A DNA stretch of 64,000 nt, from assembly GCA_004431415.1 (NCBI GenBank), contig QPMI01000533.1, positions 248,001 through 312,000 on the forward strand. Direction: 5' to 3'. This stretch comes from Cyanophora paradoxa CCMP329. Its lineage: Eukaryota > Plantae > Glaucophyta. A program made the position numbers and the translations under genes. The notes beneath the pieces are model-generated. The model saw nothing but the letters and a program-made list of their open reading frames with translations. It was not told where the DNA came from and searched no databases. Below, one piece after another: positions 1 to 63,804 of this stretch; within the stretch, counting starts at the first letter, position 1; every line of letters starts with the position of its first letter.

Positions 1-2
1 AG

Positions 3-941
3 TGGGCATGGAGTTCAGCATGGGATCCATATTATAATTATGGTTCTTACGTTTATAGTAAAAACTCTGATGACCAAACTTCTACCGCTTGGATAGACTT
101 CGATATTCCAGAAGGATATCACAAAGGAACAGCATTTTTAACTTATTTACCTTGGGTTAGCTCACGACTTTTTGAAATTTGGGGAGTGAATCGACAAGGA
201 AATGAAGTTTTTATTACATCAGTGAATAGTTATCAACCATACGCCACATCGCCTGATGGTAACCACAGTGGTTTAAATAATGTTCCTATACATCTTGGTA
301 ATCGATTTTTGACTATTCGTATTAGACCAAAGATTGGAAGAGTTCACATTATGGGTATAAGTTACATGAAAATTTGGGTAGGAAATAGTTATGGTGGTCA
401 CACCGGCTATATTCATTGGAATAATGTTTATAGTAAACCAAATATATTAACAGGAGCATTGGATGTTTGGTTTAACTCTAATGATGGATATAATCGTATT
501 TATTTCGCGAATAATAACACCACGTATATTAAAGGAAGGGGGGATTATCCAATTAGATTTCGAAATGAATTAGATTCTGATATTTGTTGGATCGATCATA
601 ACGGGCGGATGTGGATAAACAATTATTTAACACAAGGAAGTGACAGAAGATACAAAACAGACATTAAAAAGATAACCGGCGCTCTTTCAGCAATAGAGAA
701 ATTAGAAGGAGTGAGTTTTAAACGAATCGGAAGTGAAAAAGACGGAACGAAATTAGGATTAATTGCACAAGATGTTCAACATGTAATACCAGAAGTCGTT
801 AATGTGAAAAAAGATGATGGCTACTTATCTCTCGAATACACGGGTTTAATTCCAGTTCTCATAGAAGCCGTTAAAGAATTGTCTAAGAAATGCAAGAGTC
901 TACAAGATCAAATAGATCAATGGCGCAGCCAGGCTGCTTAA
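3..941 (+). CDS. Viral fibre/spike protein with C-terminal Peptidase S74 intramolecular chaperone domain (5' truncated by window)
   Basis: Frame open from position 3 (WAWSSAWDPY...); C-terminal SDRRYKTDI...GLIAQDVQHVIPEVV...LEYTGLIPVLIEAVKEL plus coiled coil is the S74 signature. Confidence 0.9.
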   Translation, partial: WAWSSAWDPYYNYGSYVYSKNSDDQTSTAWIDFDIPEGYHKGTAFLTYLPWVSSRLFEIWGVNRQGNEVFITSVNSYQPYATSPDGNHSGLNNVPIHLGNRFLTIRIRPKIGRVHIMGISYMKIWVGNSYGGHTGYIHWNNVYSKPNILTGALDVWFNSNDGYNRIYFANNNTTYIKGRGDYPIRFRNELDSDICWIDHNGRMWINNYLTQGSDRRYKTDIKKITGALSAIEKLEGVSFKRIGSEKDGTKLGLIAQDVQHVIPEVVNVKKDDGYLSLEYTGLIPVLIEAVKELSKKCKSLQDQIDQWRSQAA

Positions 942-972
942 CTGCCGTAATAAAAATGTCACAGTATAATAA

Positions 973-1281
973 ATGGCGACCTATCCACTTGGTGGATCTC
1001 CTTCTACTACTTCTGAGCCTGTCGCTCTTGCTTTTGATACTATCAAACTTGTAGCCGCACTACAAACTGTGGAAAAAACAATCCAGCAAACTAACAAACT
1101 GTCCCCAGTTGTTCATGAATATAAAAACCTCTTGGTTAATGTCCTTGCGCAATCTGCGTATGGAGATCCTGTCAGCAAGTATAATGAGCTTGACTCCAGC
1201 CTGAAAAATATGATGTCGATACTTCAAAACCTGTCAGCTTCTTATCAAGCCCTGGGATCGAATATGATTACTCCGGCCTAA
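973..1281 (+). CDS. Viral hypothetical protein, 102 aa, helical
   Basis: Clean ATG ORF in AT-rich, gene-dense block. Confidence 0.75.
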   Translation: MATYPLGGSPSTTSEPVALAFDTIKLVAALQTVEKTIQQTNKLSPVVHEYKNLLVNVLAQSAYGDPVSKYNELDSSLKNMMSILQNLSASYQALGSNMITPA

Positions 1282-1320
1282 TGTTGGCTGCAATCTTTTT
1301 TTTTCTTGCGTTTCTATTAA

Positions 1321-2169
1321 ATGACCGAGTACAATCGGGTCCAGCTACCAATCTACTCGCTGGGCTCCCCAGCCATCCATATGAGACAGCACGAAGTAAG
1401 CGATGCCGTTGCTGGATTTGAGTCCACTGAGCGTCCAAACTCAACTAATGCATTTGATCAGCGATCAGTTATTCGGTGTAAAGAATTGCGTGCAGATAAA
1501 AACTCTGGAGTTGTCAAAACGACTCGATTACTAGTTACAAATGCCAATTTCTCACAGCCCATAACAGGGGGAGTTGATTCATATAGTGTTGACCTTCGAA
1601 GCATAAACTATGATCAAAACACTGCTGCCCTCACTGTGCGCTCCGGAGGAGCAGCTATTACCGGAGCCTGCCGAGTAAGTGGAGGGCTATCATCATCAAT
1701 TTCCATCAATGATGTACCGGACTTTTCAGTAGAAAATGTCGAAAATCGTAAACGAGTTCGAATGTACGTACCTTGCTGTGACCTCCCCTATGCACAAGCA
1801 CTAGTAGAAGTTGAGATAACAATAGCTAATTCAAGTACACCAAATGGTCTTGATGGTGAGAGGTTGCTTTCAAACAGAGAAATCCCCAAGGCACTTCAAT
1901 CGCTCTGTCAAGATCAAAATGATCAAATAGGTCATGTTTACACGTTCTTTGTACAGGGTCTAGGACACGCAGGACGGGGATACGTAGTTCGTAATATCAA
2001 TACAAGGCATCTTTTCGATTTATATGCTACCGCTATAGGCAGGTATTCTATCCTAATCATCGGCTATCGCTCCGATGTAGCTGCATCAGCGGCTACTAGA
2101 GGGCTGAACGTTGATCCAGCACTGAATAATATGTATGAGGAAGGCAATCCGGAAAATCCTATACCTTAA
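1321..2169 (+). CDS. Viral hypothetical fibre-like protein, paralog of 2198-3031
   Basis: 282 aa ORF; ALTVRSGGAAITGACRVSGG resembles the GALxVxGGxGIxxxLxVGG fibre repeat; N-terminal half aligns with next ORF. Confidence 0.75.
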   Translation: MTEYNRVQLPIYSLGSPAIHMRQHEVSDAVAGFESTERPNSTNAFDQRSVIRCKELRADKNSGVVKTTRLLVTNANFSQPITGGVDSYSVDLRSINYDQNTAALTVRSGGAAITGACRVSGGLSSSISINDVPDFSVENVENRKRVRMYVPCCDLPYAQALVEVEITIANSSTPNGLDGERLLSNREIPKALQSLCQDQNDQIGHVYTFFVQGLGHAGRGYVVRNINTRHLFDLYATAIGRYSILIIGYRSDVAASAATRGLNVDPALNNMYEEGNPENPIP

Positions 2170-2197
2170 ATGAAAGTTTTATCTTCTGTTTTCTAAA

Positions 2198-3031
2198 ATG
2201 GAAGCTGTTGAAAGAATAGTAGTTCCATCGTTGACCCTCGCCGCTCCAGCCAACCACGTCCTGCAGCATGCAGTTTCAGATGATGTGCCCGGCCTACAAT
2301 CAACGGAGCAGCAGCCAACTCTAAACACCTTCCGAGACAATCACATTCTACGTTTAGGAGAGGTTCGATGTGACAAAAATAATGGCACTATTAAAACGAC
2401 TAATCTCCTTGTAACTAATGCTAATTTTAATGCGCATTATGGCGATCCTGATAGCTATGACGACGCTAACAAGGTTAATACTTTTACCTACGAATCAAGA
2501 ATAGGAGCTTTGACCTGCAGATTTGGAGGTGCTTATATAGGAGACGGCCTGAGAGTGGGCGGAGCTGCTTGTGCCCCTATATTTGTTAATGATCAACCCA
2601 ACCCTGAAAACGTAAATGAAAGAATTCGAACCTATGTGCCTTCTATGAATTCGCCTTATATCATCAAAGTCTTCACGCTAAACATAAATGAGCAAACATC
2701 GATCGTAGATAACGTTCAGCCACTCGGAAATCATTTCAAGAGTGTTGTTGATATTCCCCCGGATATCTACTTCCTTTGTAGGAGAAACGATGCTCTCCGG
2801 CCAAACATAGCTGTTTTAATTAATCCTATTGACAATTTCGGTGTCGCTTTCCATTCTACTCCAGTGGGGGTTGAAGATTACCAGTTTATTGTGAGGGCTA
2901 CGCTCATGGGGGCCTACAAAATTATTCTATTTGCCGAAAGAACAGATGCAATTGCAAATGGTGTCAAGTACGGGGAAACGTTCAATTCGAATCGTTATTT
3001 CCCAATTGGTGGGGCTGATCCTAATCCTTAG
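2198..3031 (+). CDS. Viral hypothetical fibre-like protein, paralog of 1321-2169
   Basis: 277 aa ORF; shared motifs QHxVSD, DKNxGxxKTTxLLVTNANF, and GALTCRFGGAYIGDGLRVGG. Confidence 0.75.
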   Translation: MEAVERIVVPSLTLAAPANHVLQHAVSDDVPGLQSTEQQPTLNTFRDNHILRLGEVRCDKNNGTIKTTNLLVTNANFNAHYGDPDSYDDANKVNTFTYESRIGALTCRFGGAYIGDGLRVGGAACAPIFVNDQPNPENVNERIRTYVPSMNSPYIIKVFTLNINEQTSIVDNVQPLGNHFKSVVDIPPDIYFLCRRNDALRPNIAVLINPIDNFGVAFHSTPVGVEDYQFIVRATLMGAYKIILFAERTDAIANGVKYGETFNSNRYFPIGGADPNP

Positions 3032-3064
3032 AATCTCTGTTTTTATATATACGACCCTTTGTAG

Positions 3065-3409
3065 ATGGATTTGCTCCGTAAATGCATGGAGATGTTTCAT
3101 CTCAATGTCACCAGCAAATTGAAATGCAGCTGCTGCGAGACAACTATCAACCTCGAAATATCTGACACTGAGGGCTCGCGCACCCCTGATACTCAGCTAT
3201 CGCCTATTAACACACCCGAGACTTCTAGGTCCAATTCTCCTTTTACGCGATCGGATTCACCTGTACCTTGGCTTGATTCTGATAACCGAAGATCGTCTTG
3301 GCCACCCCCAAATATCCCGAAGCCACTGAAAAGAAAGAAGTCCTTGCTATCAAGTTTCAGAAAGGAGAAGACTCCAGTTTCGGAAAAGCAGCCAGATCAA
3401 GTGGAATGA
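3065..3409 (+). CDS. Viral hypothetical Ser/Pro-rich protein with basic NLS-like motif
   Basis: 114 aa ATG ORF; CSCC near N-terminus, KPLKRKK near C-terminus. Confidence 0.6.
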   Translation: MDLLRKCMEMFHLNVTSKLKCSCCETTINLEISDTEGSRTPDTQLSPINTPETSRSNSPFTRSDSPVPWLDSDNRRSSWPPPNIPKPLKRKKSLLSSFRKEKTPVSEKQPDQVE

Positions 3410-3451
3410 GGCCGCACCAGACCGCTAAAAGGGGCCCGTTTCTTACCGAAG

Positions 3452-3632
3452 TCACGCCTATAGATTTTGCTGAACGCGTTTCCTCAGCTAGCTCGATGCA
3501 CACATTTATTTCGTCTAGCTTTACCTTGACGCTCTTTCCTCGTTTAGCTTCTCTGTACTCGCCCTCACGCCTATAGTTAATGCTGAACGCGTTTCCTCAG
3601 TTAGCTCAATGCACACATTAATATCGTCTAGC
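3452..3632 (+). repeat. Two 68-bp imperfect direct repeats (3452-3519, 3565-3632) in the subterminal non-coding region
   Basis: TCACGCCTATAG....TGCTGAACGCGTTTCCTCAG.TAGCTC.ATGCACACATT...TCGTCTAGC present twice. Confidence 0.9.
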
Positions 3633-4545
3633 CTATTCTGCTACGTTGCTCTACAGACCGCGCGCATGGGGGGCAGCGCTCCTCTTCGCCTATTCTAGTT
3701 GTCAGCTCTGTCCTGAATAGTCGTTAGATATTTCTTTGTTAAGACTCCGGCCCGAGTCTGGTAGACCTGGGAATTAGGGGCTCGTAGACGTACAAGGTGA
3801 ATTAACTGAAGATGGGGTGGAGGTATACACTGGAAACGCATGGAATCGGGGGCAATGGAGCGAAGCGGAATTGCCCGGTCGTGAGGTCCATGCGTATACA
3901 ACAGGCCAGCCCGGCCTGCAGGCATGCGCAGTGCGGCCGGGCCAGTGCCTGGCACCGTACGCGTGCGTAGTGCACGTGGCACGACGCCGCGCGTTCATCC
4001 TTATTACTAGGCTAATAATTGTTTCCGAATCGCACGCGCATACATATGCGCAGCGAGCACCGTGCGGCTTGCCAGGTTGGCCCGTGGCGGGTTCATCATG
4101 GCACGCCGCCTAGAGCCTCGGAGCTAATCATCATGTTATAAGCTAAGGCCCGCGGGCGCCTTCCGAAGAAAAAAGTTCATTTTGCAGATTTGTTCTAGAT
4201 CTACGGTACGCATACTATGATATGCATGCGCATACGTTCCAGCTTGCAAATCAGTGCGTGCATGCTCATGATCACTCACTGCTGAGCAATCGTACTCTTG
4301 CAGGCGGTTGAGCAGCGCTATAGCTAGCTATAGCGTTACTCGCGTGCACTGAGCCACCTAGGCCTGCGACCGCCGGCGCGGGCTGCAGCACGTGCTACGC
4401 GTACGGTGCCACGGTGCGCGATCGTGAGCGGGCGCGGGCCGGGCCGGGCGGGGCCGGCGGCGCGCGCGCGCGTGAACATCGTATTGCAGCGCGAAATCGA
4501 ATCGAGGCGCGCGTGGCAGCACCCGGGACCAGCGACGTATACGTA

Positions 4546-45814: not shown

Positions 45815-46517
45815 GCGTCATTTACGTCCGCGTCATTTACGTCACGGAGTTTGCCGGCGACTCGGGACTCGGGCCCAACTTCTCCCGGTAAGTTCGAGAC
45901 TTGAACTCGGCGGGGGTACCCCCGGTGTCCTAGTGTCCTAGTGTCCTAGTGTCCTAGTGTCCTAGTGTCCTAGTGTCCTAGTGTCCTAGTGCTACTAGCT
46001 AGGTGGTATCGATATCTAGCTAGCTAGCGCTAGCGCTTGCTTAATTAATTAACCTGAAGGGTCGCGTCATTTACGTCCGCGTCATTTACGTCACGGAGTT
46101 TGCCGGCGACTCGGGACTCGGGCCCAACTTCTCCCGGTAAGTTCGTCACGACCAGTAGCTACTAGTACCGCTAGTACTACGTAGTACTACTTAGTACTAC
46201 TTGGTACTACTTGGTACTACTAGCTTAGTACTAGTAGCCACCGATACTGGTACAGCTTTTATAGATTTAAGCATTCATTCAATGTGAATAACGATAATAG
46301 TAATAATAATAACGATAAGTAATAGGGATACCCTATTTTTCCAAGTCTCGAACTTACCGGGAGAAGTTGGGCCCGAGTCCCGAGTCGCCGGCAAACTCCG
46401 TGACGTAAATGACGCGGACGTAAATGACGCGACCCTTCGGTAACCTCCGCAACCCTTCAGGTAAATGTCAGGTAACTTCAGTTGAGTTAATTAAGCAAGC
46501 GCTAGCTAGCTAGATAT
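45815..46517. repeat. Complex non-coding repeat region; candidate replication origin or terminal junction
   Basis: ~82-bp unit at 45815 and 46064 (direct) and 46342-46430 (inverted); outer inverted repeat 46010/46517; (GTGTCCTA)x8 at 45925-45988; AT-rich core ~46255-46340. Confidence 0.85.
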
Positions 46518-46945
46518 CACAGCTCTACCTTGCCCAAGTTGATGGTATCTAGCAGGGCCTGCTCCTCCAAGTCTGCACCGCCGCCGCCGCCCAGCGCTAG
46601 CGCTAGCTCGATACCGCCTCCGGCCTTGATCTCCCTTGGCTCCAGCCACCTGAGGGGCTCAGGCCACCTCCTCCTGGTGAAGCCGGTATCGTTGCTCTTG
46701 TCCAGCTTGAGGTAGCGGTAGGGCGCCGGCGCCGGCCAGTCCGGCCTGTGGCCGCTTGCCTCCTTGGCTATGTCCTTGGGCCTACGCGGTCGCAGGTCCG
46801 CCTTGGCCTTCGCCCTCTGCAGGGGGCCCAGCGCCTTGAACTTCGGTGCCTTGGTCGCCGGCAGGGCCTTGGGCTGGGGCTTCTGGGGCTTCTGCGTCTT
46901 CACCGCCTTGGGCTTCGGCATCCTTGGCTGCTTCGATTTCGGCAT
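46517..46945 (-). CDS. Viral Lys/Pro-rich basic protein (putative DNA-binding/core)
   Basis: 142 aa, highly basic N-terminal half; TTTTCTCA upstream. Confidence 0.6.
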   Translation of the reverse strand: MPKSKQPRMPKPKAVKTQKPQKPQPKALPATKAPKFKALGPLQRAKAKADLRPRRPKDIAKEASGHRPDWPAPAPYRYLKLDKSNDTGFTRRRWPEPLRWLEPREIKAGGGIELALALGGGGGADLEEQALLDTINLGKVEL

Positions 46946-47183
46946 ACTTCTTGCTCATAAATGAGAAAAGCGCCTCAAAGTCTGCCTTTATCTGCTCCTT
47001 GGTCCAGGATGTCATCTGATCCGGGTCACCTGAGAACGGCGCATCGAACGCCACGTGGAGCGATTTGCAGGCCTGGGCAATCATTGGCTCGGGCCATGCC
47101 AGCTCGATCAGCTGAAGGTAGATGTTGAGGGCCTTGTCGAGCTTGGCGCCCTGGGAGACCAGCTGGGAGATGGCGGGCTCCAT
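46782..47183 (-). CDS. Viral hypothetical protein overlapping the basic-protein gene
   Basis: Start MEPAIS at 47183 with TTTTCTGA upstream; helical N-terminus. Confidence 0.55.
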   Translation of the reverse strand: MEPAISQLVSQGAKLDKALNIYLQLIELAWPEPMIAQACKSLHVAFDAPFSGDPDQMTSWTKEQIKADFEALFSFMSKKYAEIEAAKDAEAQGGEDAEAPEAPAQGPAGDQGTEVQGAGPPAEGEGQGGPATA

Positions 47184-47444
47184 GGTGGGTAGACTAGCAT
47201 CAGAAAATGGCGCCAAGTTTGAATCTATTTTTTTACTACTTGGCGAGGGGCTGGGCCCGGGACTCGGGCCCAAACTCCGTGACGTAAATGACGCTGACGT
47301 AAATGACGCCGAATTTTCAAGTTGCCCTCACATGAACCTCAGCTGAGCGCTCACCTGACCCTCACCTGAACGGCCTCTATAAGCACGCGGCACGCGGCGT
47401 TCCCCTCACACTCTCAATCTCTCTCAACGCAACCAGCAAGCACC

Positions 47445-50442: not shown

Positions 50443-51453
50443 TTACTGACCGGGTCGGAGGGCCCGGGCTGCTAGGTCGTACATCTCCGCCTTCCGGGCG
50501 TTCGTTGCCGCGAGCATGGTAATCTGCCTGTTCTCCGTGTTCCGGACGAGGGCCTGGAAGGCTGTCTGAATTGCAGTCTGCGATGCTTCGGACATACCGG
50601 CCACCGTCCCCTTTGCACGGAGCTCTTCCATGCGCCCTTTCTCGAACGGCGTGGCAAGCTGGTTGCTCTGCAGCGCAGGGAGCGGGTTGACGACGCGGGG
50701 CAGCAGGTTCTGGTCCGCGTAAGGCGTGGCCGTGGGCAGGGCCGGGCCGCGCGTCCCCGGCTGATCGAGGAGCATGGCCCCGAACGGATTGCCCCGGCTG
50801 AAGTCCACGTCGTTGCGCCCGTAGGGCTTGTTGACGGCGCTGCTGATGTTGGCCGTCTGCGCGTTGAACATGGGCGAGAGGTCGGGGGTGTAGCCCGCGC
50901 GCAGCCCCTGGGGGTTCGCCGCCGTCTGCCCGTAGCGGCCGGCCGGCCCGAGCAGGTTCTCCTTCTCGATCTCTTCCATCGTCTTGATCCAGCCGCGCTC
51001 GCGCGCCCACTTCATGACGAGATCATCGTAGTTCATCGGGAAGAAAACCTTCTGGTACTTGTCGAAGCGCTGAATTTCGATATCCTGCTCGATCATGTTC
51101 GTAATTCGCTCCAGCAGCTCGGGGTAATATTCCTCGAGCATTTTGGCGACGCCCGGCTGCTTCAGGTCGAAGGCCGTCATCGCCCACTGGTCGAAATCGC
51201 GAATCATGATTTCCTTCCGCAGGCTGAACGCGTTCTCCACATCCTCCTCGTTGATCGTGCGGCCGGGGTTCGCGTTCTGCAGCTGCTGTCGGATGCCCAT
51301 GCGCATCAGCTTCTCCATCGAGGGCGTGTACTTCATCGCGGGCAGGGTCTTCGTTTCCCCCCCGCTGAGCCCCAGGCCCCGCGCCTTATCCTCGGGCGTG
51401 TAGATGTCCGCCTTCGTCCCATCTACGACGGGCACCTCGGGCATAATCGTGCC
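50443..51453 (-). pseudogene. 3' part of viral gene disrupted by the composite retroelement
   Basis: Joins in frame to 63687-63804 when element and one TSD are removed: ...VNKFLPGTIMPEVP... Confidence 0.85.
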
Positions 51454-51816
51454 TGTGCCGCCCACTTTCCGACTCCCAGCTAGCCCTGGTCGTCGGCTCG
51501 AAGCCGGCAGCTTGCCTTGCTTTGTACCCTTTGTAGCCTGCTATTCCTGGTGCCACGTTGTTGCCAACTGGCCCGCTTATTTTAGCCCTGGGCCCTCGCT
51601 TGCCCTGCGCGGCGCTCGCTTGCTGTCTTGTCCCTGTTCTCTGTACTTACTGTCTTACGCTGTACCTGTTACTTGCTGTCTTACGCCGGCTCTGCGCCTG
51701 CTGTCTACGTAATGGCACCCGCTTGCCGTCGCCCTACGGTGCTGTACGGGCCTGTCCCTCTCTGCTTGGGGCGCCTCTGGGCCTAGCCAACTGCTTAGCG
51801 CATCCCGCCCAGCGCA
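51454..51816 (+). repeat. 5' LTR of non-autonomous element (363 bp)
   Basis: Begins TGTGCC, ends GCGCA immediately before PBS. Confidence 0.8.
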
Positions 51817-53963
51817 TGGGGGCTGCTGCGTTGGGCTTCGACTTTTTAGCTCGTATGCCTGGGGACGAACGCTGCGCTCTTGCCCGAACCCCCGGACAAG
51901 CACGCCATCGTTTGCCTCGGCTTGCGCGTACGGCCTCCACTCTCTTGTAGTGGGAAGCGCCTATGCGGCAGAGCTTAGCAATACGAACCGCATGGTTCAT
52001 GCCTTTCTACCCGCCACTGCGCGCGCCTTTTCTTGCTTACGGCCCCGGCGCACCACTCTTTCGGTAGTGGGAAGCGTCCGCCAACCCGTCTATTGAGCCG
52101 CATGCGCTCACAGTCATCTAAACGTGCCGTGGCTGCGCTCAAGAACAGATGCTGATGCAGCCCGCGCGCATGTCGAATGAAACTGTATTGTATTGTATCG
52201 AGAGACGACACCACAGCGTACTACTAAATGTATTGCAATGGTGGCGAGTGTATCTGAAGAACGCATGGAGTCAAACCGCTGCGACGTGAAAGCCCCTGGG
52301 ATAACATGGCCCCAGTACGCGCCCGAGGTCTTACCTACGACGGCTGCTGTGGCGCCTGCGGACCTCCCGAGGCACGCTCAGCGGCGGCGAGTGGCATCCC
52401 TCGTGAGGATCACTCCACTTGACTCCACCCTGCATCCAGAGGACCCGGCGCAGCTCCACTTGACAGCGATCTCTATGCGAGGAAGCGCATCTATCTGTTG
52501 TCAAGTCTACTGTGCGCGCTGTCGCACCTAGACGGTAGACAAGATGCCAAGACCTTGCCCTGGCTCCGACGACGTAGCTGCCCTTCTCCGGGACGTCCAG
52601 CTCGTCAAGCCAGATGTCAGTCGCTTCACGCACATCTCAAGCGTGTGCGAACTGTCGTTTTCTTCCTGTCGTGGGCGTTTGATCAGCGACCGAGGCCTGT
52701 TCAGCGGGCGGAGGTCTGACCGAGGCCTGTCCGGCGGGCGGAGGTCAACAGAAGCGTAAAGGATGCGCTCTGGAACGTCCTACGACGACGTGAGCAGCCA
52801 TAGCTAAAGTTGGACGGCGGACAGCGGACCTGTCTGTTGAGGAGCGTCAGCAAGCAGCACTGGGTGATGCCCCGCGACCAGTCTTCACGTTCGCGCGTCG
52901 ACTGCGTCGGCCCGTCGGGTGATTCCCGTGCATCGGTTGAACCTGGCAGCTGGGTGATGCCAGCTGGACGCCAGCGCTGTTTCGGTCTGCTTAGCTGTGG
53001 GTGATTCCACGCTGACCAAGCCAGCACGCACCGGCGCTCTAGTCCGGGTGCTTCCGACCAAGCCTCCGCTTGCGACTCTCCGCTGCTGAGAGGTCCATAC
53101 GTCTTGCCTACGACTATCACGCGAGCACCGATGATCATTCCGGGCCGCGCTGATGCTGTCTCCTGTCCCGCGATGGTGGCCTGCCTAAGCCCCGGCTACG
53201 CGCTGCATCTGCGTACGCTGGCGGACTCGATGGCTGTATCCCATCCCGTCCGATCGTGGAGGATCCTTGGCGATGGGTCTGTATGATGCGACCAGTGGCC
53301 TGCTGCTGCTGCGGAGCCTGACCCCGTACGACTGGCTCGCCGCCTCTACTCTTCATGGCTTGCCTGCTCTACGCGTACGCGGCTGCACACTCTACTGTGC
53401 TGACCGATCGCCCCGCCTTGTGACTCCGCCGGCCGAGTCACTTGGCAACGCAATGCGGCAAGCTGCGCCGAGCTTGGCCCGCAACGCGTACTCTACCGCT
53501 GCGGCTCTGCTGATCGAGCCTGCGGTCCTACACTACTACACTCTACGTCAAGTACCTTCTACACTGTGGAACTTTCGACCCGGCGCCGCCGCGGCCCGGC
53601 GGCTCGTGTGGCGCGGCGCCGGCTTCGAATTCGAGCTTAGTGCTAGCGCTAGCACTCGTTTTCCCTTCCGGCGGGATTTAGAGGGTTTGCCCCCGGTTGG
53701 CTGGCGGCGCTCCGCGCGCTCTGGCGTCAGGTCGTGGGTCCCTCACCCAACTTCCCTTGTTGGGCCCAGTTCCTCATACTGGTGCCGACGGCCTGATGGA
53801 TTTTAATTTGCCCCTCTGGCCCGCCCGCTGTGGCGCCGAGGACGGCTTTCTGTGCAGGGACGGTAGCCGGCTTTTGGCTCGTAGTCCGTTCAGCCTCGCC
53901 TACGCAGCTTTAGTTCAGCCTTTAGCTCGTAGCGCCGAGGACGGCTTTTTGTAGCGGGAAGCG

Positions 53964-54152
53964 TGTGCCGCCCACTTTCCGACTCCCAGCTAGCCCTGGT
54001 CGTCGGCTCGAAGCCGGCAGCTTGCCTTGCTTTGTACCCTTTGTAGCCTGCTATTCCTGGTGCCACGTTGTTGCCAACTGGCCCGCTTATTTTAGCCCTG
54101 GGCCCTCGCTTGCCCTGCGCGGCGCTCGCTTGCTGTCTTGTCCCTGTTCTCT
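53964..54152 (+). repeat. Truncated 3' LTR of non-autonomous element (189 bp)
   Basis: Identical by eye to 51454-51642. Confidence 0.9.
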
Positions 54153-54153
54153 T

Positions 54154-54482
54154 TGCGCGGCTAAGGGAAGCACGCCCAGTGCAGACCTGAGCAGGCAGGT
54201 TGATGGCAAGAGGCTGAGCAGCACCAGTGCGACGGAGCAGCAGAGTCTCGGTAGGATTGAGTACAAAGGGAACAGATATAGCGCTAGACATAGCTACAGC
54301 GAGGCTAGTCATAGTGCTAGGGCTATTCTGAGCGTGCTAAGATGGTCGCTGGACCAGATGGCAACGCGTACAAGGGTACAGGCCCAGAGGACAGGGCTAA
54401 ATAAGGGAGCAGAGGCCAAGGGCCTAGCTAAGAGCTAGAGGACTAGCCGACGAGCCGAGCGAGTCGGGAAGTGGATGGCACA
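54154..54482 (-). repeat. 3' LTR (329 bp)
   Basis: TG...CA on minus strand; identical by eye to 63358-63686. Confidence 0.95.
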
Positions 54483-54989
54483 TTCGTCCTAGCACAGCGC
54501 GCCGTCCTCGGCGCAAACAAGGCCGGGCGCAAAGAAGGAGGCGCAGAGGCCTACAAAGAAAAATTTCGGGCAAAGCCCGGGCTACCGTCCCTGTTCAGAA
54601 AGCCGTCCTCGGCGCTACTGAGAGCGAGCCGGGCTAAGAAGCTAGCCGGGCTAAAGAGTGAGCGAGCCGGGCTAAGAAGCGAGCCGGGCTAAAGCGTGAG
54701 CCGTAGTACAAAAATTTGGGCTGCAAAGCCCGGGCTACCGTCCCCGTTCGGAAAGCCGTCCTCGGCGCTACAGAGAGGGAGCCGGGAAGCAAGAGAACGA
54801 GTGACATAGCCGAAAAGAAAGCCATCAGGTCGCGGAGTACCAGTATGAGGAACTGGACCCAACAGGAAGCTGGGCGAGGGCCCCGCGACCTAACTCCAGC
54901 AAGGCGCGCGAAGCACCGCCAGACAACCGGGGGCAAACCCTCCAAATCCACCCGGAAGGGCAAGAGACTCTGCTAATGAAAAGATCGAG

Positions 54990-57900
54990 CTACGGCCGGC
55001 GCAAGGCCTCCGTAGGGAACAGTCGCAGCCGCGCGACATGCACCTCGAAGGGACCGCCGCCAGCGCGGTGAACGACCCGCGGATCCGACGTATCCGGCTT
55101 GACCATCACGCGCGTGCGTGAGAGCACCTCCGTGATCCAGTACGGGCCGGAGAAGCCAGACGAGTTGGGTACAGGAGCCTTCGTGCGCAACGGCTCAACC
55201 AAGATCTGCACCGGATCTCCAACTTCGAAGTAGCGGCGAGCAGCGCCACCGCGAGCCACGAAGGCCCGTTCAATGCGGAGAGCTTGCTTGAGCGTAGCCT
55301 CGAACGCCCGCTGCCAGTCAGCTCGTTGCGCCTCCGAAATCGCCGAAGCCCAAATGCCGTACATCGAGGGCGACGCCGACCGCAAACGATCAGCATTCGA
55401 CGCAAGAGGAAGGTCTGTGCCTTCAGGGGCGTTCCCCGCCGGCGGCGAAGCCGGTGATGATGCCGATGCAGAAGCTGACTCCGCATCGCGTTGCAGGATG
55501 AACTTCGGAAGCCGGCGGCTGGCAGGAGTGTTCCAGGCCGGTCCTAGGTTCGATCGAAGTTGACTCCGCATGGTGGCGACGAGCGAAGCACGATGCTCGA
55601 TGATGCGATCCTCAGCGATGACGATCCGAGGTGCCCGCGAAGCCACCGCCTCGTTCTCGCGCTCCCGAAGGCATTCAAAGCACTGACAAGCACCGTTGTG
55701 CACGACAGGCGCTGGCAGGGCGACCTCCGCAGGACTTGGCGCTCCCGCGCGCGCAGCCTTGACCTTGGTGCGTTCCCGCAAATCCGCGCACACCGCGCAT
55801 CGACAATCTCCTCCAGCTGACTGCCCATGACGCCAGAGACACGAGGGGGCGCGCGGAGATCCAGCGGTGCGCTCCCACCGACCGCCGTCCTCCTTGTAGG
55901 TCCACAACTGATCCGGCGCCGCGCAGCACACAATCCGCTCTCCGAATAGCTGAACCTGCTGAATTGGAGGCATCGGAGCTGTGCCCGGCGCCGTCGTGAC
56001 TGGCGCCGAGTACTTGAGATCAAGCTCCGTGACCGCGTCGTAACCATGGTGCAGCCGGAACGGCGAGAAGCCTGTCGCCGCTGACACTGATGTGTTGTAC
56101 GCAGTGAGCGCCTCCTGGACGTGGTTCTGCCAGCGCCCGCCGCGCTGAGCCGTCAACGAGCGAATGATCGCCTCCAAGGTGTGATGCGCACGCTCCAGCT
56201 TTCCTTTTGTCTGATGGACATACGCCGGCAGAATGACGAGCCGAACGCCCTTCTTCTTGAGAAAAGAAGCCGTGTCCGCCGAGACAAAAGGTGTGCCTTG
56301 GTCCACCTCGACCTCCAGCATGAGGCCGTGAATGTTGAACAACTTCTGCAGAGACTTCTTGACGGCCTCCGAGTTGACGCGCGCGTACACGTCCGCGTAC
56401 AGCAGCCGCGAGAAGCTGTCCTCCATCGTGAGCAGCTGTGGGGCGTCCTTGCCAGCGAACTCCACCACGTCCAGCTGCCAACGCTGCATCGGCCGACTCG
56501 CAAACCGTGCCTCCGGCGGCACGTGCGTCGTTTGCAGGTGCTTCGTTGTCCTGCACACCTCGCACCCCTTGATGAAGTGCTGAACGTACTTCCGCATGTA
56601 CGGCCAGAAGAACCGCTCCTTGATTCTTGTCGTGGTGCGCTGTGATCCGAAATGTCCGCCTCCGTATCCAGCGTGCGCCTCCTTGATGATCTCCTCGCGC
56701 AGCTCCTTCGGGACGTAGACTTGCGGAATGTTGCGTGGCCGGCCCTTCCTGTCCAGCGTCTTCACCAGCATTCCACCAGCGCCAAGAGCGCAGTACTGCA
56801 GCGCCGTCTCGACCTTCTCGCGGTCCGCGCGCTTGAGTTTGTCGAGCGATGCCGGCTCGCGGATCGCGTCGATGATCCTCCGCAGGTCGGCGTCCGCGTA
56901 CTGAGCATCGCGCATCTTCGAGTCGGCCGCCTGCATCGCCGGTGCGGGTGCCACCGCCGCCACGCGGGGCGCGCGTTGCTGCTGCCGCTGATCGCGCGCC
57001 GCCGCGCAGATCCGGCAGTTGCCAATCACATCGCGGACGATGCGACGGAACCAGGTGCGGTTGACGACGTCGTCACCGAACAAGTCCTTCTTCAAGTGCG
57101 CCGCCACTCGCTTGCATGTGGCCTCGAATCCAAGGCAGCTGACCTTCGATTTCGGATGCAGACGGGCCACTGCGGCCCGAATCTCCTCCACCATCTTCGC
57201 GTGCTCCAGAGCCGGCAGCTTCCGGACACCGCGGTCGTACAGGTACGACATCCGCATTGCTGCCACGGCCGGACGTGCCGTTTTCGCTGACGGGTCCCCC
57301 GCCCGCAGCTGCTCCTTCGAGAGAATGCGCTCGATCGCACGCTTGTCGCCACCAGCCGCGAGCTTGGCGATGTGCGCCTCCTTTGCCAGCTGCTGGAGCG
57401 TCGGCGGCGAGCCCGCCTTCGTGCCAGTCTTCGCGGCCCGCTTCTCCTGCAAGGCAGCGATGATCTTGCAGGCGAGGGCCCGCTCCTCGGCCGCCGTCTG
57501 CTTGAATTCCCGCACGGCGCTGATCTGAATTTGCGCAGTTGAACCCTCCGTCTGCGTGCCAACGTCGCGTTGACCGTAGTAGAGGATCCATAGTCGTGAG
57601 AGTGCATCGGCATCGAGGTTTGTCTTGCCCTTGATGTACTCCACGTCGAACTGAAACTTGCTCAGTTTCATGACCCAGCGAGTGATCCGACCGCCCTTCG
57701 CTCCGTTCAGCTCGTAAGTCGGCTTGAGGAACGTCTTGAGCGGCTCGTGATCCGTTCGCAGAGTGAACGGCCGCAACTCGAGGTACGGGCGGTACACGTC
57801 CGTCACGGCCCAGACAACTGCCAGCGCCTCGAGTTCCGGTACGCTGTAATTTTTCTCGTCGCGGCCCGTCGATCGGCTCGCGCAAGCGACGATGTACTCG

Positions 57901-60900
57901 TTCCCCTGATCGTCCTTCTGCTTCAGGACTGCGCCAAGTCCGTACTTGCAAGCGTCGGTCTGCAAGATGAATTTCTTCTCGAAATCCGGATAGCGGAGAA
58001 CAGGTGCCTCCGTCAACTTCCGTCGAAGCTCTTCGAAAGCTGACTGTTGCTCCTTTCCCCAGGTCCAGTCGATGCCGGACCGCAGAAGGCCAGTCGAAGG
58101 TTCACATATTTTTGCGAAGTTTTTAATAAATCTCCTGTAATATGACGCGAAGCCGTAGAACGCTCGCAGCTGCTTCGGGTTCGTCGGCACCGGCCACTTC
58201 ACGATCTGCTCGATCTTCTTGGGGTCCATCCGAATGCCGTTCTTGTCAACGATGTGGCCCAGAAGTTCGACCTCCGCCTTCGCAAATCGGCACTTTGTTG
58301 ACTTGAGTCTGACGTTGGCCTCGTCCAGTCGCTGCAGGACTCGCCGCAGGTCGGCCGCATGATCCTCGACGCGTCGAGACATGATGCAGATGTCATCGAG
58401 GTAAACCGTGCAATGGATCCATTTGAGGCCTGTTAAGATGCAGTCCATCGCGCGTTCGAATGACTTGGGGCTGTTCGACAGGCCAAACGGGGTCACATTG
58501 TACTCGTAGAGGCCGTTACTGGTGAGAAACGCTGTCTTCTCTTTGCTCGCCTCGTCGAGGGGCAATTGCCAGTATCCGCTGATCATGTCCAGGGTCGAAA
58601 AGATGACCGAGCCTTGGAGCGAGTCCAAGATGTCGTCAACACGAGGAAGAGGGTACGCGTCTGGCTTCGTCTTCGCGTTCAATTCACGATAATCGACGCA
58701 AAATCGCCACGTCCCGTCCTTCTTCTTAGCCAGAACGACAGGAAACGCCCACGGTGACTTGGACGGCCGGACAACGTTGTCCTTGAGCATCTGCTCGACG
58801 TGCTCCGAGATCACCTTGTTTTTGAGAGCATTGTTCCGCCGTAACGGAATCTGAATCGGACGTGCTCCTTGAACGTCGATGTGGTGCGCGTATTTTTGGG
58901 GCAGCAGCTTGCCCGTCTCGACCTTGTACTCGGACGCAAACATGTGTCTGAAATCGTACAGCACCGCGCAGACGCCTCTGACGACGGTGGCGTCCAGACC
59001 CTCATGTCCGACGTCCAGTCTTGCACGAAGAGCTTGCCACGCCGGGTCCGCCTCCCGAGTGCGGCACTCCTCGCATTGTCCGCAGGCGCATGACTCCTTG
59101 CGCTGCGTCGCAGGTCGAGTTGCTGTCGGCGTCTCGCCGACCGACGCCACCGTTGGCCCGTTCGCCGCCGTCGGTGTTGTCGCCTCCTCCTTGGTCTCCG
59201 TCTCCTCCTTCCTGGTGTGGTCGTTCTTCACGCCGACTTCATGAACAGAGCTGATCGTCTGCAGATCGGGACCCTCCGGCGTCCAGTAACCGAGCATGGC
59301 GCCCTTCTTGATCCGACGATTCGCATATTGCGAGTTCAGCACTCGAACCATGCAGACGCCGTCGTGGAACGTTGTCAGGTTCCCGGCCATCATGAGGTTC
59401 GTCTTCTGGTACAGTCGTGGATGCTCTTCCACCATGCCGCGAGTGCCGTCCTTCGGCTGATCGCCCTTTTGATCCAGCTTGACCAGAACGTCGTGTTCGT
59501 GCCGAGCCTTGATCTTCACGTCCTCCGACGCGATCACCGCAACGCCACTCCGTACGCGTGGCTCCGTGTTGACTGTCTCTCCCGACTTGTTTTTCATGAT
59601 GCCCTCGGACAGATCGATGGCCCACGCGTTGTCCATGATGTAGTCGGCGCCAAGAATAATGTGCGTTGGCAAATTCTCCCACACGAAGAATTCTTGCACT
59701 GATTTTGCGAGCGTCCCCAGCGTCACCTCGATGTCGACGGAGCCCAACACGTTGACTGGTGAGCCGTCTGCCGTCGCAAATTCGCCTCTCCTGCTCTTGT
59801 CGATTTTCTCCTGCAGGCCGAGCTTCTCCACCAGGCGCCTCGAGATAATCGAGAACGCGGCGCCGGTGTCGACGAGCGCCTTCAAGGGCCCCTTGCCGTT
59901 GAGTCTCGCCTGAATCTCCGCATGAACTCCGGTTCGTTTGCTCAATCGTTCTGCCGTCCGCCGAAGCGAGGCAATGATTGTTTCTTGCTCCTCGGCCAGA
60001 GTCATGCCGTCGAGGTCGTCCAGACCCTCGACATTGTCGTTGTCGCTGTCGTCGTCGACTGCAACCTCCGGGACGCGTCCCGTACGTCGATCGTTCGATG
60101 TCTCGGCGGTACGCGCGCGTCGCGCTCGTCGCTCGTAGACCATCTGAACGTTTGGCCCCCAGCGGGCCAGCGGGTAGGAGCGGTTGAAGTCGGACTGAGG
60201 CGAGCTCGTGGTGGAACACTTGCTCTCCTCGTCTGTGAGTTCGTCCGATTTCCGCTTGAGGTAATTCCGCCTCCATTCGGCTTGACGCTTGAAGACGATC
60301 GAACCCGTGGGGTTCGTCCACAGGTTGCTGGCCGGTGCAGGCACCGCCAGCTGTGATCTCCACGTCTTCGCGTAGCCAGGAGCACAACTGAAGCTGGTAC
60401 TGTCCGCCCTCGCGGCGTCTCGCGTCGGGTGCGACCCGACGTCTTGCGCCGCGCGGGAGGATGACTGACTCTTGCGTCCAGTTGTCCCCTCTCCTGATTC
60501 CTGCATCGCCGCGGAGCTCTGTCGGTGCGCTTGTAGCTTGCTCCCGTACAGTCCGCTGTGCTGATGCGGCGCCGGCGCTGTTGCAGCTGCCGTCTTGCGC
60601 CCGCCAACCTGCTGGATCCTCGTGGAGGTCCGTTGCTGCAGGTGTGATTCAACAGTGGTCGCTGGCCGAGTCCTCGAGGAGGAGTCTCGCCCCGTCGCTT
60701 CTGCGCCATGGCTTGTGCGTTCGCTCTTGGAGCTCAGCGTGCCTCGTTCCGCGACGGTGCTCCACTGGTCACGTTGTGGCCTTCGCTCGCCTCCAATCGA
60801 CACGTCATCCGCCCCGCCTTCCTTGGGCAGGGCGGCCGCGTGCGCCGATAGAGGTACAGCGGTTTGCTTTGCACGTAGTGATTGAACCTTCCGATCACTC

Positions 60901-61416
60901 ACGGGCCTTCGTTCGTCCTCGCACAGAACACGCGACGCCCCGCCCGTGAGGGGTTGGGCGCCCTTGCGTCCTGTGCGGGATCGAACGGTCTGATGTTCGT
61001 CCTCGCACTGAGACTGTTGCGGTTCGTCCTCGCACACATCTCCTTTCCGCCCCCGTCTGACTTGTTCGTCCTTGCACAGAGTCTTGTGCTGGTGGGCGTT
61101 GTGCGGACGGGCGACTTCGTCGTCGATCTCCATGTCATGCTCGTCGTCGCCGTCAACATCTCCATCTTCGTCCTCATCTCCATCCTTGTCTCCGTCAACG
61201 TCTCCATTTTCCTCGCCGTCGTCGTCCTCCCAATCGTCGTTTTCACGCCAGGCCTCATCGTCCTCCATTTCCACGTCACCGTCTATTGCGAGCACGGCGT
61301 AGCGTCCGCCATACTGTGCAGTAGAGGTGGGCCTCTTGATTTGCCCTCCGCGCGGGTCCGGCTCCTGACTCCGCGCCGGGCGGGCCAGTTTACCGCCGGA
61401 CGCCCGCGGCGCCCCG
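54990..61416 (-). CDS. pol: Pol polyprotein (aspartic protease, RT, RNase H, integrase), +1 frame relative to gag
   Basis: LVDTGA, WRFCVDYR, YLDD, LQTDAC/ELEAL/TDH, HHCC zinc finger, D-D-E (WQLD, VDQG, KLER), GPY motif; uninterrupted ORF 54990-61823. Confidence 0.95.
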
Positions 61417-63114
61417 AAAGGGCTGGCGCTGGCGCTGGCGCTGCGGCTGCTGCTCCTCCTCGTCCTCGTCATCCTCGAGGTCAACAATCTCGTCCTCGTC
61501 CACCGGCTGCGCCTGGTACACGACGCGCTGGCGCCGGACGGGTACATCGTTGGCGCTGGTCGGCCGGCCGCCGCGGCCGCGTGCGAGGCGCGCGCCGCCA
61601 CGCTGGCGCGGGATCCGCTGGCCCATCGCCTGCTCGTCGCCCCGCTCGCCGTTCGTGATGGCGAGGTACCCCTGGCCAGGGTACGCCATCTTGCGGTCGC
61701 ACGGGTGGCCGTGCAGCTTCCAGCAGTTGTCCACCGTGTGACCGTACTTCCGGCAGTGATTGCAGAACGGCCGCTCCGCGTCGACACCGGGGGCGGAGGC
61801 GTAGGGGGGTACGTCATTTCCACGGTACGCTCCGCCGCCCATCGCGTTGAAGTGCTGACGACTGACTTCAGGTGCCGCCGGCAGCATCCGACCGTATGTC
61901 ACCAAGTTGATGTCCGCCTGGGGGGTACTGGTGAGCTTCGTCGCCGCGAATTTCTTGCACTCGTTCATGAAGTGACCCTTGAATCCGCAGAAGAGGCAAT
62001 GCGCGCCCGACGCGTCGACACGCTTGTTCTTGCGGTCGTCTTTGCGATCACGGTCGTCCCGATCGTCGCGATCGTCCCGGCGGCGGTCGCGATCGTCCTT
62101 GCGATACTTGCGGCGGCGATCGTCGCGATCGTCCTCCGAGTCGCTGCGCCGGTCCGTCCGCCGATCACGGTCGCGCTCGCTACGCTTCTCATGGACTGCA
62201 GCGATGGCGGCGGCCCGCGCCTCGACCATCTGATGGAAGATGACGGGATCGACTGTTGCGGGGGTAGACGACACTTGGACGCCGGCGTTGGCCTGGACGG
62301 GTGCGCTGTTGCCGCTGTTGACGTCGTCCGTGCCCCCGTTTATGCCGATCGGCAGGCTGTTTGCTCCCGTACCGAACTGAATGTTGTGGATGCGGCCGTG
62401 GAGGGGTACACCATTCTTGGGCACGTTGAGGGAGTTGACGGCCTGGACACGCCGCGAGAACTTGCTGGTGCTCACGCGTTTGGCGATGTACTCTGCCCAC
62501 TGATCGGGGTCCTCCTTGTGCTCACGAGCTGCCTTTTCCGCCAGATCGAAGAGGTCGATGTTCGAGATGAGGGCCTCTGTCATCTCGTAGACGAGCACGG
62601 CGTCCGGCATCACGTGCTCAAGCTGCAGCAACGCGCGTGTCTCAACGGTACGTTGCTTGTAGTCCTTGATGTCGGCGGGGATGAGCATTGACTTCGTTGC
62701 CAGCTTCATGCCCTCGTTGAAGATGCGCTGCTTCATCAAGGTCTGGGGATTGTAGACGTTGGCGTACTCGCGGATGAGGACCGTTCGCATATCCTCGTAG
62801 GACATGTCAGGACGTAGCTCGCGGCGCAGCGCCTGTAGAGGCGTGCCCTCAGCTTGTAGCATTGCCTTGTACAACGACTGAGCTTTAACAGTCTCTTTAT
62901 CGGCGATGGTAGAGCTGTCGATGTTGTGCGTCCAGTCGTGGAACAGACTCAGATAGCCCAACACATCACTGTCCTTCTGGGGCACAGGCGGCGGGTATTG
63001 ATTGATTACATTCGTATAGGCGGAATTCGCAGCGATCGACTGCATGGCGGCGGCGTGGTCGCGATTGACAGCGAGCGACTTGTTCACGATGCGCCTCATG
63101 AAGGAATGACTCAT
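61390..63114 (-). CDS. gag: Gag with two CCHC zinc knuckles
   Basis: Start MSHSF at 63114 downstream of PBS; CLFCGFKGHFMNEC and CNHCRKYGHTVDNC. Confidence 0.9.
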   Translation of the reverse strand: MSHSFMRRIVNKSLAVNRDHAAAMQSIAANSAYTNVINQYPPPVPQKDSDVLGYLSLFHDWTHNIDSSTIADKETVKAQSLYKAMLQAEGTPLQALRRELRPDMSYEDMRTVLIREYANVYNPQTLMKQRIFNEGMKLATKSMLIPADIKDYKQRTVETRALLQLEHVMPDAVLVYEMTEALISNIDLFDLAEKAAREHKEDPDQWAEYIAKRVSTSKFSRRVQAVNSLNVPKNGVPLHGRIHNIQFGTGANSLPIGINGGTDDVNSGNSAPVQANAGVQVSSTPATVDPVIFHQMVEARAAAIAAVHEKRSERDRDRRTDRRSDSEDDRDDRRRKYRKDDRDRRRDDRDDRDDRDRKDDRKNKRVDASGAHCLFCGFKGHFMNECKKFAATKLTSTPQADINLVTYGRMLPAAPEVSRQHFNAMGGGAYRGNDVPPYASAPGVDAERPFCNHCRKYGHTVDNCWKLHGHPCDRKMAYPGQGYLAITNGERGDEQAMGQRIPRQRGGARLARGRGGRPTSANDVPVRRQRVVYQAQPVDEDEIVDLEDDEDEEEQQPQRQRQRQPFRGAAGVRR

Positions 63115-63339
63115 GATGATGAAGCTTGAGGCACGTCGGGAGAATCGAAGATCGGCGAGCCGAAGACGGACGGGGTCGGGGCAGTGGCCGACGGGGTCGG
63201 GAGCGAGCACAGGATGAACTCGCCGTTGACAGGCGAGGTCGGGAACTGGTCGCCGCCGACTACGATTGCGCGACGCGTAGCGGTAGGCGGAGTGAGCTCC
63301 GAGTGGTAGAGAGGCTTGGTCGGTTCGTTGCTCCGAATG

Positions 63340-63357
63340 AAGCCGGTGCAGCCCCCA
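63340..63357 (-). promoter_or_regulatory. Primer binding site, tRNA-Pro-like
   Basis: TGGGGGCTGCACCGG directly after 5' LTR; resembles tRNA-Pro PBS TGGGGGCTCGTCCGG. Confidence 0.75.
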
Positions 63358-63686
63358 TGCGCGGCTAAGGGAAGCACGCCCAGTGCAGACCTGAGCAGGC
63401 AGGTTGATGGCAAGAGGCTGAGCAGCACCAGTGCGACGGAGCAGCAGAGTCTCGGTAGGATTGAGTACAAAGGGAACAGATATAGCGCTAGACATAGCTA
63501 CAGCGAGGCTAGTCATAGTGCTAGGGCTATTCTGAGCGTGCTAAGATGGTCGCTGGACCAGATGGCAACGCGTACAAGGGTACAGGCCCAGAGGACAGGG
63601 CTAAATAAGGGAGCAGAGGCCAAGGGCCTAGCTAAGAGCTAGAGGACTAGCCGACGAGCCGAGCGAGTCGGGAAGTGGATGGCACA
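63358..63686 (-). repeat. 5' LTR (329 bp)
   Basis: Direct repeat of 54154-54482. Confidence 0.95.
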
Positions 63687-63804
63687 TGCCCGGAAGGAAC
63701 TTGTTCACGATGCCGTCCATGTCGGCCTTCAGGTCGTTCTTCAGCGACTGGCGCTGCTTCTTAGAGCCCTCCCCAATGTCCATCATAGAGTGGCCCTTCG
63801 TCAT
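63687..63804 (-). pseudogene. 5' part of the disrupted viral gene
   Basis: MTKGHSMMDIGEGSKKQRQSLKNDLKADMDGIVNKFLPG, preceded by AT-rich AATAAATTTTCC. Confidence 0.8.

What the first reader, a model, noticed from the sequence alone, without database searches (positions are those of the whole stretch)
51450..63690. Bipartite LTR insertion: autonomous Gypsy and its non-autonomous partner fused tail-to-tail under one TSD
Seen: TGCC at 51450-51453 and 63687-63690 flanks a unit made of element A (+ strand; full 5' LTR, PBS, 3' LTR cut at 189 bp), one extra T, and element B (- strand; two full LTRs). Both outer ends are 5' LTR (U3) ends of different elements, neither element has its own TSD, and removing the unit restores the target ORF in frame. 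Established: an LTR integrase normally joins the two ends of one cDNA. Inference: two different co-packaged cDNAs were integrated together, with inner ends joined by autointegration or end joining; alternatively this is a stable composite family. The extra T fits end joining better than clean strand transfer.
Basis: partly seen in the sequence, partly recalled or inferred. Interest (0 to 1): 0.85.

Follow-up and report, generated by a model that had tools for sequence, protein, structure and literature searches.

The report
Two retrotransposons inserted together, tail-to-tail
In an alga's genome, a complete jumping gene and a related gene-less one sit joined tail-to-tail inside a single insertion scar in a virus-like gene, most likely because their two DNA copies were fused and pasted in as one piece, which would record which complete element carries the gene-less one.

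Summary
A 12,233-bp unit splits a gene of a multi-copy virus-like element, with an exact 4-bp duplication (TGCC). The site is intact in 15 of 20 homologues, and the named ones are labelled Cyanophora paradoxa. The unit is non-coding element A (363-bp 5' LTR; 3' LTR cut at 189, identical over that length), one T, then an intact Ty3/Gypsy element B on the other strand (two identical 329-bp LTRs). Both outer ends are U3 ends. A and B share their U3 tip, primer site and 3' UTR, and public contigs show both LTR types beside other flanks. Best reading (0.65): an A cDNA and a B cDNA were joined at their U5 sides and integrated once through their two U3 ends. Whether end joining or integrase made the inner joint is open, because the T lies in a T run and may be an assembly error. 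No read-level confirmation was obtained. Same-family inverted pairs under one TSD are published for maize TRIMs; I did not find the autonomous plus non-autonomous form in print. New variant of a known kind, one locus.

The parts
50443..51453 (-). C-terminal part (residues 39-374) of the interrupted gene of a multi-copy virus-like element
   Evidence: tblastn of homologues, up to 98% identity to P0019
51450..51453 (+). left copy of 4-bp target-site duplication TGCC
   Evidence: sequence; frame test
51454..51816 (+). element A 5' LTR, 363 bp, TG...CA; its U3 tip is the left outer end
51817..51826 (+). A primer-binding site TGGGGGCTGC, same 10 bases as B (tRNA-Pro-like, recalled, not tested)
51817..53963 (+). 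A internal region, no gag/pol; 53660-53874 is 74% identical to B's 3' UTR over 241 columns
   Evidence: Pfam blank for two A ORFs; blastn and tblastx against B
53964..54152 (+). A 3' LTR, first 189 of 363 bp, identical to 5' LTR; last 174 bp missing
54153..54153 (.). single extra T at the inner joint (an A after B's terminal CA on B's plus strand); lies in a TTT run
54154..54482 (-). element B 3' LTR, 329 bp, intact U5 end CA at the inner joint
54990..61817 (-). B pol frame, 2275 aa: protease, RT, RNase H, integrase in Gypsy order, catalytic motifs present
   Evidence: Pfam; Ty3 Gag-Pol E=9e-96; DTGA, YLDD, TDAC, D..D(35)E
61390..63114 (-). B gag-like ORF, 574 aa from the first ATG after the PBS, zinc-knuckle-like motifs; overlaps pol frame
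63348..63357 (-). B primer-binding site TGGGGGCTGC, directly after the LTR's CA
63358..63686 (-). element B 5' LTR, 329 bp; its U3 tip is the right outer end
63687..63690 (+). right copy of 4-bp target-site duplication TGCC
63687..63804 (-). N-terminal part (residues 1-39) of the interrupted gene

Best explanation
A gene-less LTR element (A) and a complete Ty3/Gypsy element (B) lie tail-to-tail inside one 4-bp target-site duplication, most likely because an A cDNA and a B cDNA were joined at their U5 sides before insertion and were then integrated in one reaction through their two U3 ends. Shown in the sequence: the anatomy, the exact TSD, the interrupted gene, and the cis-elements that A and B share. 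Inferred: A RNA is packaged and copied by B's proteins, so both cDNAs meet in one particle or nucleus. B's intact U5 end was joined to an A cDNA lacking its last 174 bp, slightly more likely by end joining or an RT jump with one untemplated base (about 0.40) than by an integrase attack on A's LTR with the T as an error (about 0.25). The only free ends left were the two U3 tips, 19 of 22 bases alike, and B's integrase inserted them as a pair. It is a one-off accident, not a new replicating unit.
For: Both outer ends stop at canonical TG/CA with an exact 4-bp duplication and no target loss against uninterrupted homologues (15 of 20 intact). LTR pairs show 0 differences in 189 and 329 bp, so both halves are young, which fits one event. 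No internal TSD, no microhomology at the joint. A and B share the U3 tip (19 of 22), the U5 end GCGCA, a 10-base PBS and a 241-column 3' UTR block at 74%; whole-LTR alignment score 67 against a maximum of 11 in 200 shuffles. B has complete PR-RT-RH-IN with catalytic motifs. Public contigs show full-length A LTRs and A- and B-type LTR ends beside other flanks, so each element type also exists apart from this unit. Precedent: a PCR-validated pair of inverted maize TRIMs under one TSD, and 6 of 93 arrays of type R-L4I2 (PMC4717578, passages and supplementary Table S3).
Against: One locus, known only from an assembly; no read-level confirmation was obtained. The T is not predicted by any clean model. 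The other three TSD-side flanks seen could not be paired, so 4 bp is not shown to be this family's usual TSD. Donor copies were not found: the window's A differs from the commonest A contigs at many sites, and the laid contigs read A where both B LTRs have G (54283). LTR identity could be inflated if the assembly was corrected by majority rule, as a published assembly of this species was (PMC6704402, passages). Co-packaging is inferred from shared sequence only.
Confidence: 0.65

Rival explanations
1. Nested insertion plus deletion: A inserted first, B later landed in A's 3' LTR at base 189, and a 178-bp deletion then removed the rest of A exactly up to the TSD.
For: Nested LTR insertions are common (PMC1950507, PMC11899658, passages). 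B's U5 end is intact, as after integration. The two deletion ends would share CA, and 4 of 5 bases (GCACA/GCGCA).
Against: Needs a deletion with both ends exact on a 2-base match, within a time too short for any LTR difference. The T still needs an error.
Confidence: 0.1
2. Double insertion at one target site (TGCC-A-TGCC-B-TGCC) followed by a 178-bp deletion at the inverted joint.
For: Double insertion at one site makes tandem dimers in Drosophila, and junction deletions are frequent for hobo (10.1101/158386, passages).
Against: No internal TSD remnant. The site is empty in 15 of 20 homologues, so it is not an evident hot spot. The deletion must end exactly at B's first base. The passages read concern DNA transposons and LINEs.
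Confidence: 0.08
3. Assembly artefact: the unit, or its inner joint, is a chimera of repeats from different loci.
For: A, the B LTR and the virus-like flank are all multi-copy. Frameshifted homologue models (P0003, P0009) suggest indel errors in such repeats.
Against: A chimera would need two independent insertions at the same 4 bases in opposite orientation, and a join exactly at B's terminal CA with no shared sequence. An error confined to the inner joint leaves the two U3 outer ends unexplained. Long B pieces match public contigs with 0 differences (61345-63210, 56353-57238).
Confidence: 0.08
4. Stable composite family: A+B moves as one unit with quasi-inverted U3 ends.
For: The unit has 22-bp imperfect inverted ends. 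Two window-identical protein models exist for pol (P0031, P0151) and for the target gene's C-terminal part (P0001, P0015), which could mean a second locus or alternative models.
Against: A-type contigs are about 24-43 times deeper than a single-flank contig while B gag is about 1.1 times (rough depth ratios, not copy numbers). No single transcript with two matching R regions can copy an inverted pair by normal reverse transcription (established mechanism).
Confidence: 0.05

Closest known systems
Inverted tandem TRIMs of maize, type R-L4I2 (Gao et al. 2016, PMC4717578; seen: passages, Fig. 2 legend, supplementary Table S3 rows; figure itself not seen)
   Same: Two LTR elements in opposite orientation inside one TSD; PCR-validated; 6 of 93 tandem arrays.
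   Different: There both halves are the same TRIM family with four LTRs; here an autonomous 9.5-kb Gypsy is fused to a different 2.7-kb non-coding element, one LTR is cut and one base is added. The passages read give no mechanism and do not say whether the maize pair is tail-to-tail.
Template-switch complex insertions (Sabot and Schulman 2007, PMC1950507; seen: part 1 of 2 of the text) and tandem LTR-RTs (PMC11899658; passages)
   Same: Two element bodies under one TSD, read as one integration.
   Different: Same orientation, a shared central LTR and homologous outer LTRs giving normal U3 and U5 ends; none of this holds here.
Retroviral and Ty1 autointegration (Yan et al. 2009, PMC2644782; passages)
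   Same: An integrase-activated CA end joined to an internal site of element DNA could give the inner joint.
   Different: Described as intramolecular and non-productive (deletion or inversion circles); here the target is another element's cDNA and the product reached the chromosome, with one extra base.
Double-insertion TE dimers (McGurk and Barbash, 10.1101/158386; passages)
   Same: Two elements adjacent at one site.
   Different: Their mark is a TSD inside the junction, absent here.
Ty3/Gypsy (Metaviridae) LTR retrotransposons, for element B alone
   Same: PR-RT-RH-IN order, DDE integrase, best solved-structure match Ty3 Gag-Pol.
   Different: Best listed hits outside this species are about 36-53% identical over parts of pol; no chromodomain hit; gag has no relative in the search.

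Membership tests
Ty3/Gypsy LTR retrotransposon (element B) | direct LTRs with TG...CA ends and a PBS after the 5' LTR | tested here: met
   329-bp identical LTRs, PBS directly after CA
Ty3/Gypsy LTR retrotransposon (element B) | pol order protease-RT-RNase H-integrase with catalytic residues | tested here: met
   Pfam positions 635-727, 1031-1190, 1253-1388, 1702-1862; motifs and D(35)E; Ty3 E=9e-96
Ty3/Gypsy LTR retrotransposon (element B) | own TSD on both sides of the element | tested here: not met
   TGCC on the U3 side only; the U5 side abuts T plus A's LTR
Chromovirus branch (element B) | chromodomain at the integrase C-terminus | tested here: inconclusive
   no Pfam hit; no tree built
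Non-autonomous LTR element of B (element A) | no gag/pol coding | tested here: met
   longest ORFs 177 and 145 aa, no Pfam hit; tblastx to B hits only the non-coding 3' UTR
Non-autonomous LTR element of B (element A) | shared cis-elements (LTR tips, PBS, 3' UTR) | tested here: met
Non-autonomous LTR element of B (element A) | mobilised in trans by B's proteins | not testable with these tools
   inferred from shared sequence
TRIM (element A) | shorter than 1,000 bp (PMC4717578) | tested here: not met
   2,699 bp here, about 2,870 bp with a full 3' LTR
Inverted TA-TRIM (R-L4I2) | two elements in opposite orientation under one TSD | tested here: met
Inverted TA-TRIM (R-L4I2) | both halves one TRIM family, four LTRs | tested here: not met
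   different LTRs and sizes; A's 3' LTR is cut
Template-switch complex insertion | same orientation, shared middle LTR, homologous outer LTRs | tested here: not met
Double-insertion dimer | TSD copy inside the junction | tested here: not met
   junction reads CTCT-T-TGCG
Autointegration product | terminal CA joined directly to an internal site | tested here: inconclusive
   CA is intact but one extra base follows; it lies in a T run and could be an error
DIRS-type or TIR element | tyrosine recombinase or transposase with true inverted repeats | tested here: not met
   DDE retroviral-type integrase; the 22-bp inverted likeness is LTR homology
Mriyavirus-like endogenous virus (target) | capsid and packaging genes of that class | not tested
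   only DUF5767, YqaJ and weak AAA hits, 22-member clusters for two neighbouring genes; a preprint reports Mriyaviricetes-related regions in a glaucophyte assembly (10.1101/2025.04.19.649669, passages)

The most novel reading that the evidence does not exclude
Two cDNAs of different families swapped ends between two intasomes: A-U5 with B-U5 attacked A's own 3' LTR, releasing a 178-bp circle and welding B to A, while A-U3 with B-U3 integrated the dimer. Autointegration, normally suicidal, would then be productive, and such joints would be direct records of which autonomous element co-packages which non-autonomous one.
Probability: 0.2. Interest if true: 0.75.

Novelty: new variant of a known kind. 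Interest (0 to 1): 0.5.

Why it matters
If real, it shows that an LTR integrase can use the like ends of two different cDNAs in a living cell. It also physically links a gene-less element to the complete element that likely moves it, a pairing that Gao et al. say still needs experimental proof for TRIMs. Standard LTR finders would not report such a unit as one insertion (inference), so the class may be under-counted. For this alga it marks B as a rare intact Gypsy that probably drives a much more numerous gene-less family, and shows such elements breaking genes of an endogenous virus-like element.

Tried and rejected
No whole genome was available, so the joint and standalone copies could not be counted. 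Sequencing runs: 24 listed, 20 hold part of the stretch, no RNA holder on record; 7 distinct runs of the 24 were laid, all as contigs. No listed contig bridges 54152/54154 and no listed loose end is the window's own outer flank (three consensus strings checked). The tables were cut (441 and 124 pieces, 60 and 11 loose ends hidden) and contigs drop rare paths, so this is no evidence either way. Decomposing bin depths at the joint was underdetermined. The shared U3 pattern gave 1 hit in metagenome contigs (L001, no blastn match to the window at E 1e-3, judged chance) and 0 in viral contigs. Virus-like proteins found no loci in viral contigs. Six junction-spanning or A-derived ORFs are not in the protein collection as exact sequences. 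An 8-base match between B's U5 end and A LTR 153-160 is 29 bases from the joint, P about 0.025 before correction; not used. No hairpin at A 189. The idea that base 189 is A's poly(A) site could not be tested, and a poly(A) template would give A, not T. Spliced antisense forms gave no convincing ORF. The Atlas and representative searches returned no result. Literature searches for a cross-family inverted pair under one TSD (listings only unless cited) found none; PMC10886601 has no hit for six orientation terms; the Ty1 autointegration paper PMC1676259 is not held. Subscription papers and preprint supplements were not searchable and may hold a precedent.
Full report
Observation. TGCC lies at 51450-51453 and 63687-63690. 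Element A starts at 51454 with a 363-bp LTR (TG...CA), then a primer site TGGGGGCTGC, 2.1 kb without gag or pol, and a 3' LTR identical to the first 189 bases of the 5' LTR. One T follows. Element B occupies 54154-63686 on the minus strand with two identical 329-bp LTRs. The unit is 12,233 bp. Both outer ends are U3 ends. There is no internal duplication and no shared sequence at the inner joint.

Target. The left flank encodes residues 39 onward, and the right flank residues 1-39, of a gene with many relatives. The halves overlap by exactly the four duplicated bases and the frame sum is 0 mod 3. Of 20 homologues of 150 aa or more among P0001-P0029, 15 run intact across the site; two of the five others are the window's own models, two lack the N-terminus and one is frameshifted there. 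The named homologues are labelled Cyanophora paradoxa. Two neighbouring genes each form 22-member clusters, and the region has DUF5767 and YqaJ hits. I read the target as a multi-copy endogenous virus-like element; its class was not tested. A preprint reports mriyavirus-related regions in a glaucophyte assembly (10.1101/2025.04.19.649669, passages), and retrotransposons nested in endogenous viruses of protists are described (PMC12220804, passages).

Element B is an intact Ty3/Gypsy element. Pol has protease, RT, RNase H and integrase in Gypsy order, with the catalytic motifs and a 35-residue D-E spacing; Ty3 Gag-Pol is the best solved match, E=9e-96. In the protein collection the pol cluster holds two window-identical models and one 93%-identical 362-aa fragment from another contig; gag finds only itself among the 7,991 candidates scored.

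Element A is a relative of B without genes. They share 19 of the first 22 LTR bases, the U5 end GCGCA, the first 10 bases of the primer site and a 241-column block of 3' UTR at 74%. The global LTR alignment scores 67 against a maximum of 11 in 200 shuffles. That B's proteins move A is inference.

Public runs. Twenty of 24 listed runs hold part of the stretch; seven were laid, all as contigs. Long B pieces match with no difference (61345-63210 in X1 and X6; 56353-57238 in X1). Full-length A LTR variants exist, and A and B LTR ends occur beside other flanks: behind 51816, before 53964, before 54154, behind 54482 and 54483. Relative to a single-flank contig in X1 (depth 65), A internal sequence is 24-43 times deeper, the B LTR about 11 times and B gag about 1.1 times; the tool warns that such depths are not copy numbers, so these are rough. 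They argue against a fixed A+B family. The window's A allele differs from the commonest A contigs, and the laid contigs read A at 54283 where both window B LTRs have G, so neither donor was identified. The contigs neither show nor exclude the three junctions (see Tried and rejected).

Mechanism. An LTR integrase normally joins the U3 and U5 ends of one cDNA and leaves a short duplication (established; PMC1950507 and PMC2939329 passages). Here a clean duplication flanks two U3 ends. The simplest account is a linear A-B dimer joined at its U5 sides, whose two free U3 tips are alike enough for B's integrase. Two routes to the inner joint remain. In the first, B's blunt end, which ends at CA because the primer site follows the LTR directly, gained one untemplated A and was joined to a shortened A cDNA by end joining or an RT jump (untemplated addition by RT is recalled, not cited). 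In the second, B's CA end attacked A's 3' LTR by strand transfer, as in autointegration (PMC2644782, passages), perhaps paired with A's own U5 end, which would cut out a 178-bp circle; the T would then be an error. The T lies in a TTT run, homologue models show frameshifts, and a published long-read assembly of this species was corrected by majority rule (PMC6704402, passages; used only as a guide to error modes). Base 189 also lies at a motif where A variants differ by short duplications, which may mark a place where copying slips.

Rivals. Nested insertion plus a precise 178-bp deletion has only a 2-base match to explain both breakpoints. Double insertion predicts an internal duplication (10.1101/158386, passages), which is absent, and the site is empty in most homologues. 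Misassembly would need two opposite insertions at the same four bases. A stable composite conflicts with the depth pattern, though the paired window-identical protein models leave a second locus or a duplicated contig open.

Comparison and novelty. Same-orientation complexes under one duplication are known (PMC1950507; PMC11899658) and differ in having normal ends. The closest published case is the inverted TRIM pair of maize, PCR-validated, with 6 of 93 arrays of that type (PMC4717578); both halves there are one family. Seven searches found no cross-family, autonomous plus non-autonomous case. Earlier notes of this scan describe similar fusions in other genomes; they are unchecked leads, not support, but they pointed me to the maize paper and lowered my novelty rating.

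Verdict. Real in the assembly; probably one integration of a tail-to-tail cDNA heterodimer (0.65); new variant of a known kind; interest 0.5, limited by one locus and no read-level proof.

Noticed in passing
window 52445-53031 (minus strand) and 55413-55927 (plus strand): Contigs of two runs guessed to be RNA (X15, X20) skip short stretches, several with GT..AG ends, antisense to A and antisense to the 3' end of B's pol; the two DNA runs laid beside them do not. Both families may make spliced antisense RNA; no convincing ORF was found.
   Followed up: partly
window 60715-63174 and 56382-59126: Contig joints show internally deleted B derivatives lacking gag and much of pol, a second kind of non-autonomous partner.
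   Followed up: no
window 61414-61422 (minus strand): gag and pol frames overlap by about 500 bases, pol in +1; CCC TTT CGG lies just before the gag stop and resembles the UUU-C +1 frameshift motif (motif recalled).
   Followed up: no
window 3410-3680: Another LTR-like end (GCGCGCA followed by TGGGGGGCAGC) with internal tandem repeats and the TTCTCTGTACT motif also found at A's cut site; no second LTR in the window.
   Followed up: partly
window 1-3409: AT-rich (about 40% GC) run of intron-free ORFs, the first a tail-fibre-like protein with Peptidase_S74; probably the end of a second endogenous virus-like element.
   Followed up: no
window 45815-47309: Four copies of an 82-90-bp (one 39-bp) repeat with doubled GCGTCATTTACGTC motifs, in both orientations, in a gene-poor part of the virus-like region; possible origin or promoter array.
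   Followed up: no
joint 61384 to 54154: A B-type LTR followed by a longer primer site whose first 13 bases equal A's, suggesting a further family that uses B-type LTRs.
   Followed up: no
P0001/P0015 and P0031/P0151: Two window-identical protein models each for the target gene's C-terminal part and for pol: alternative models, a duplicated contig or a second copy of the locus.
   Followed up: partly
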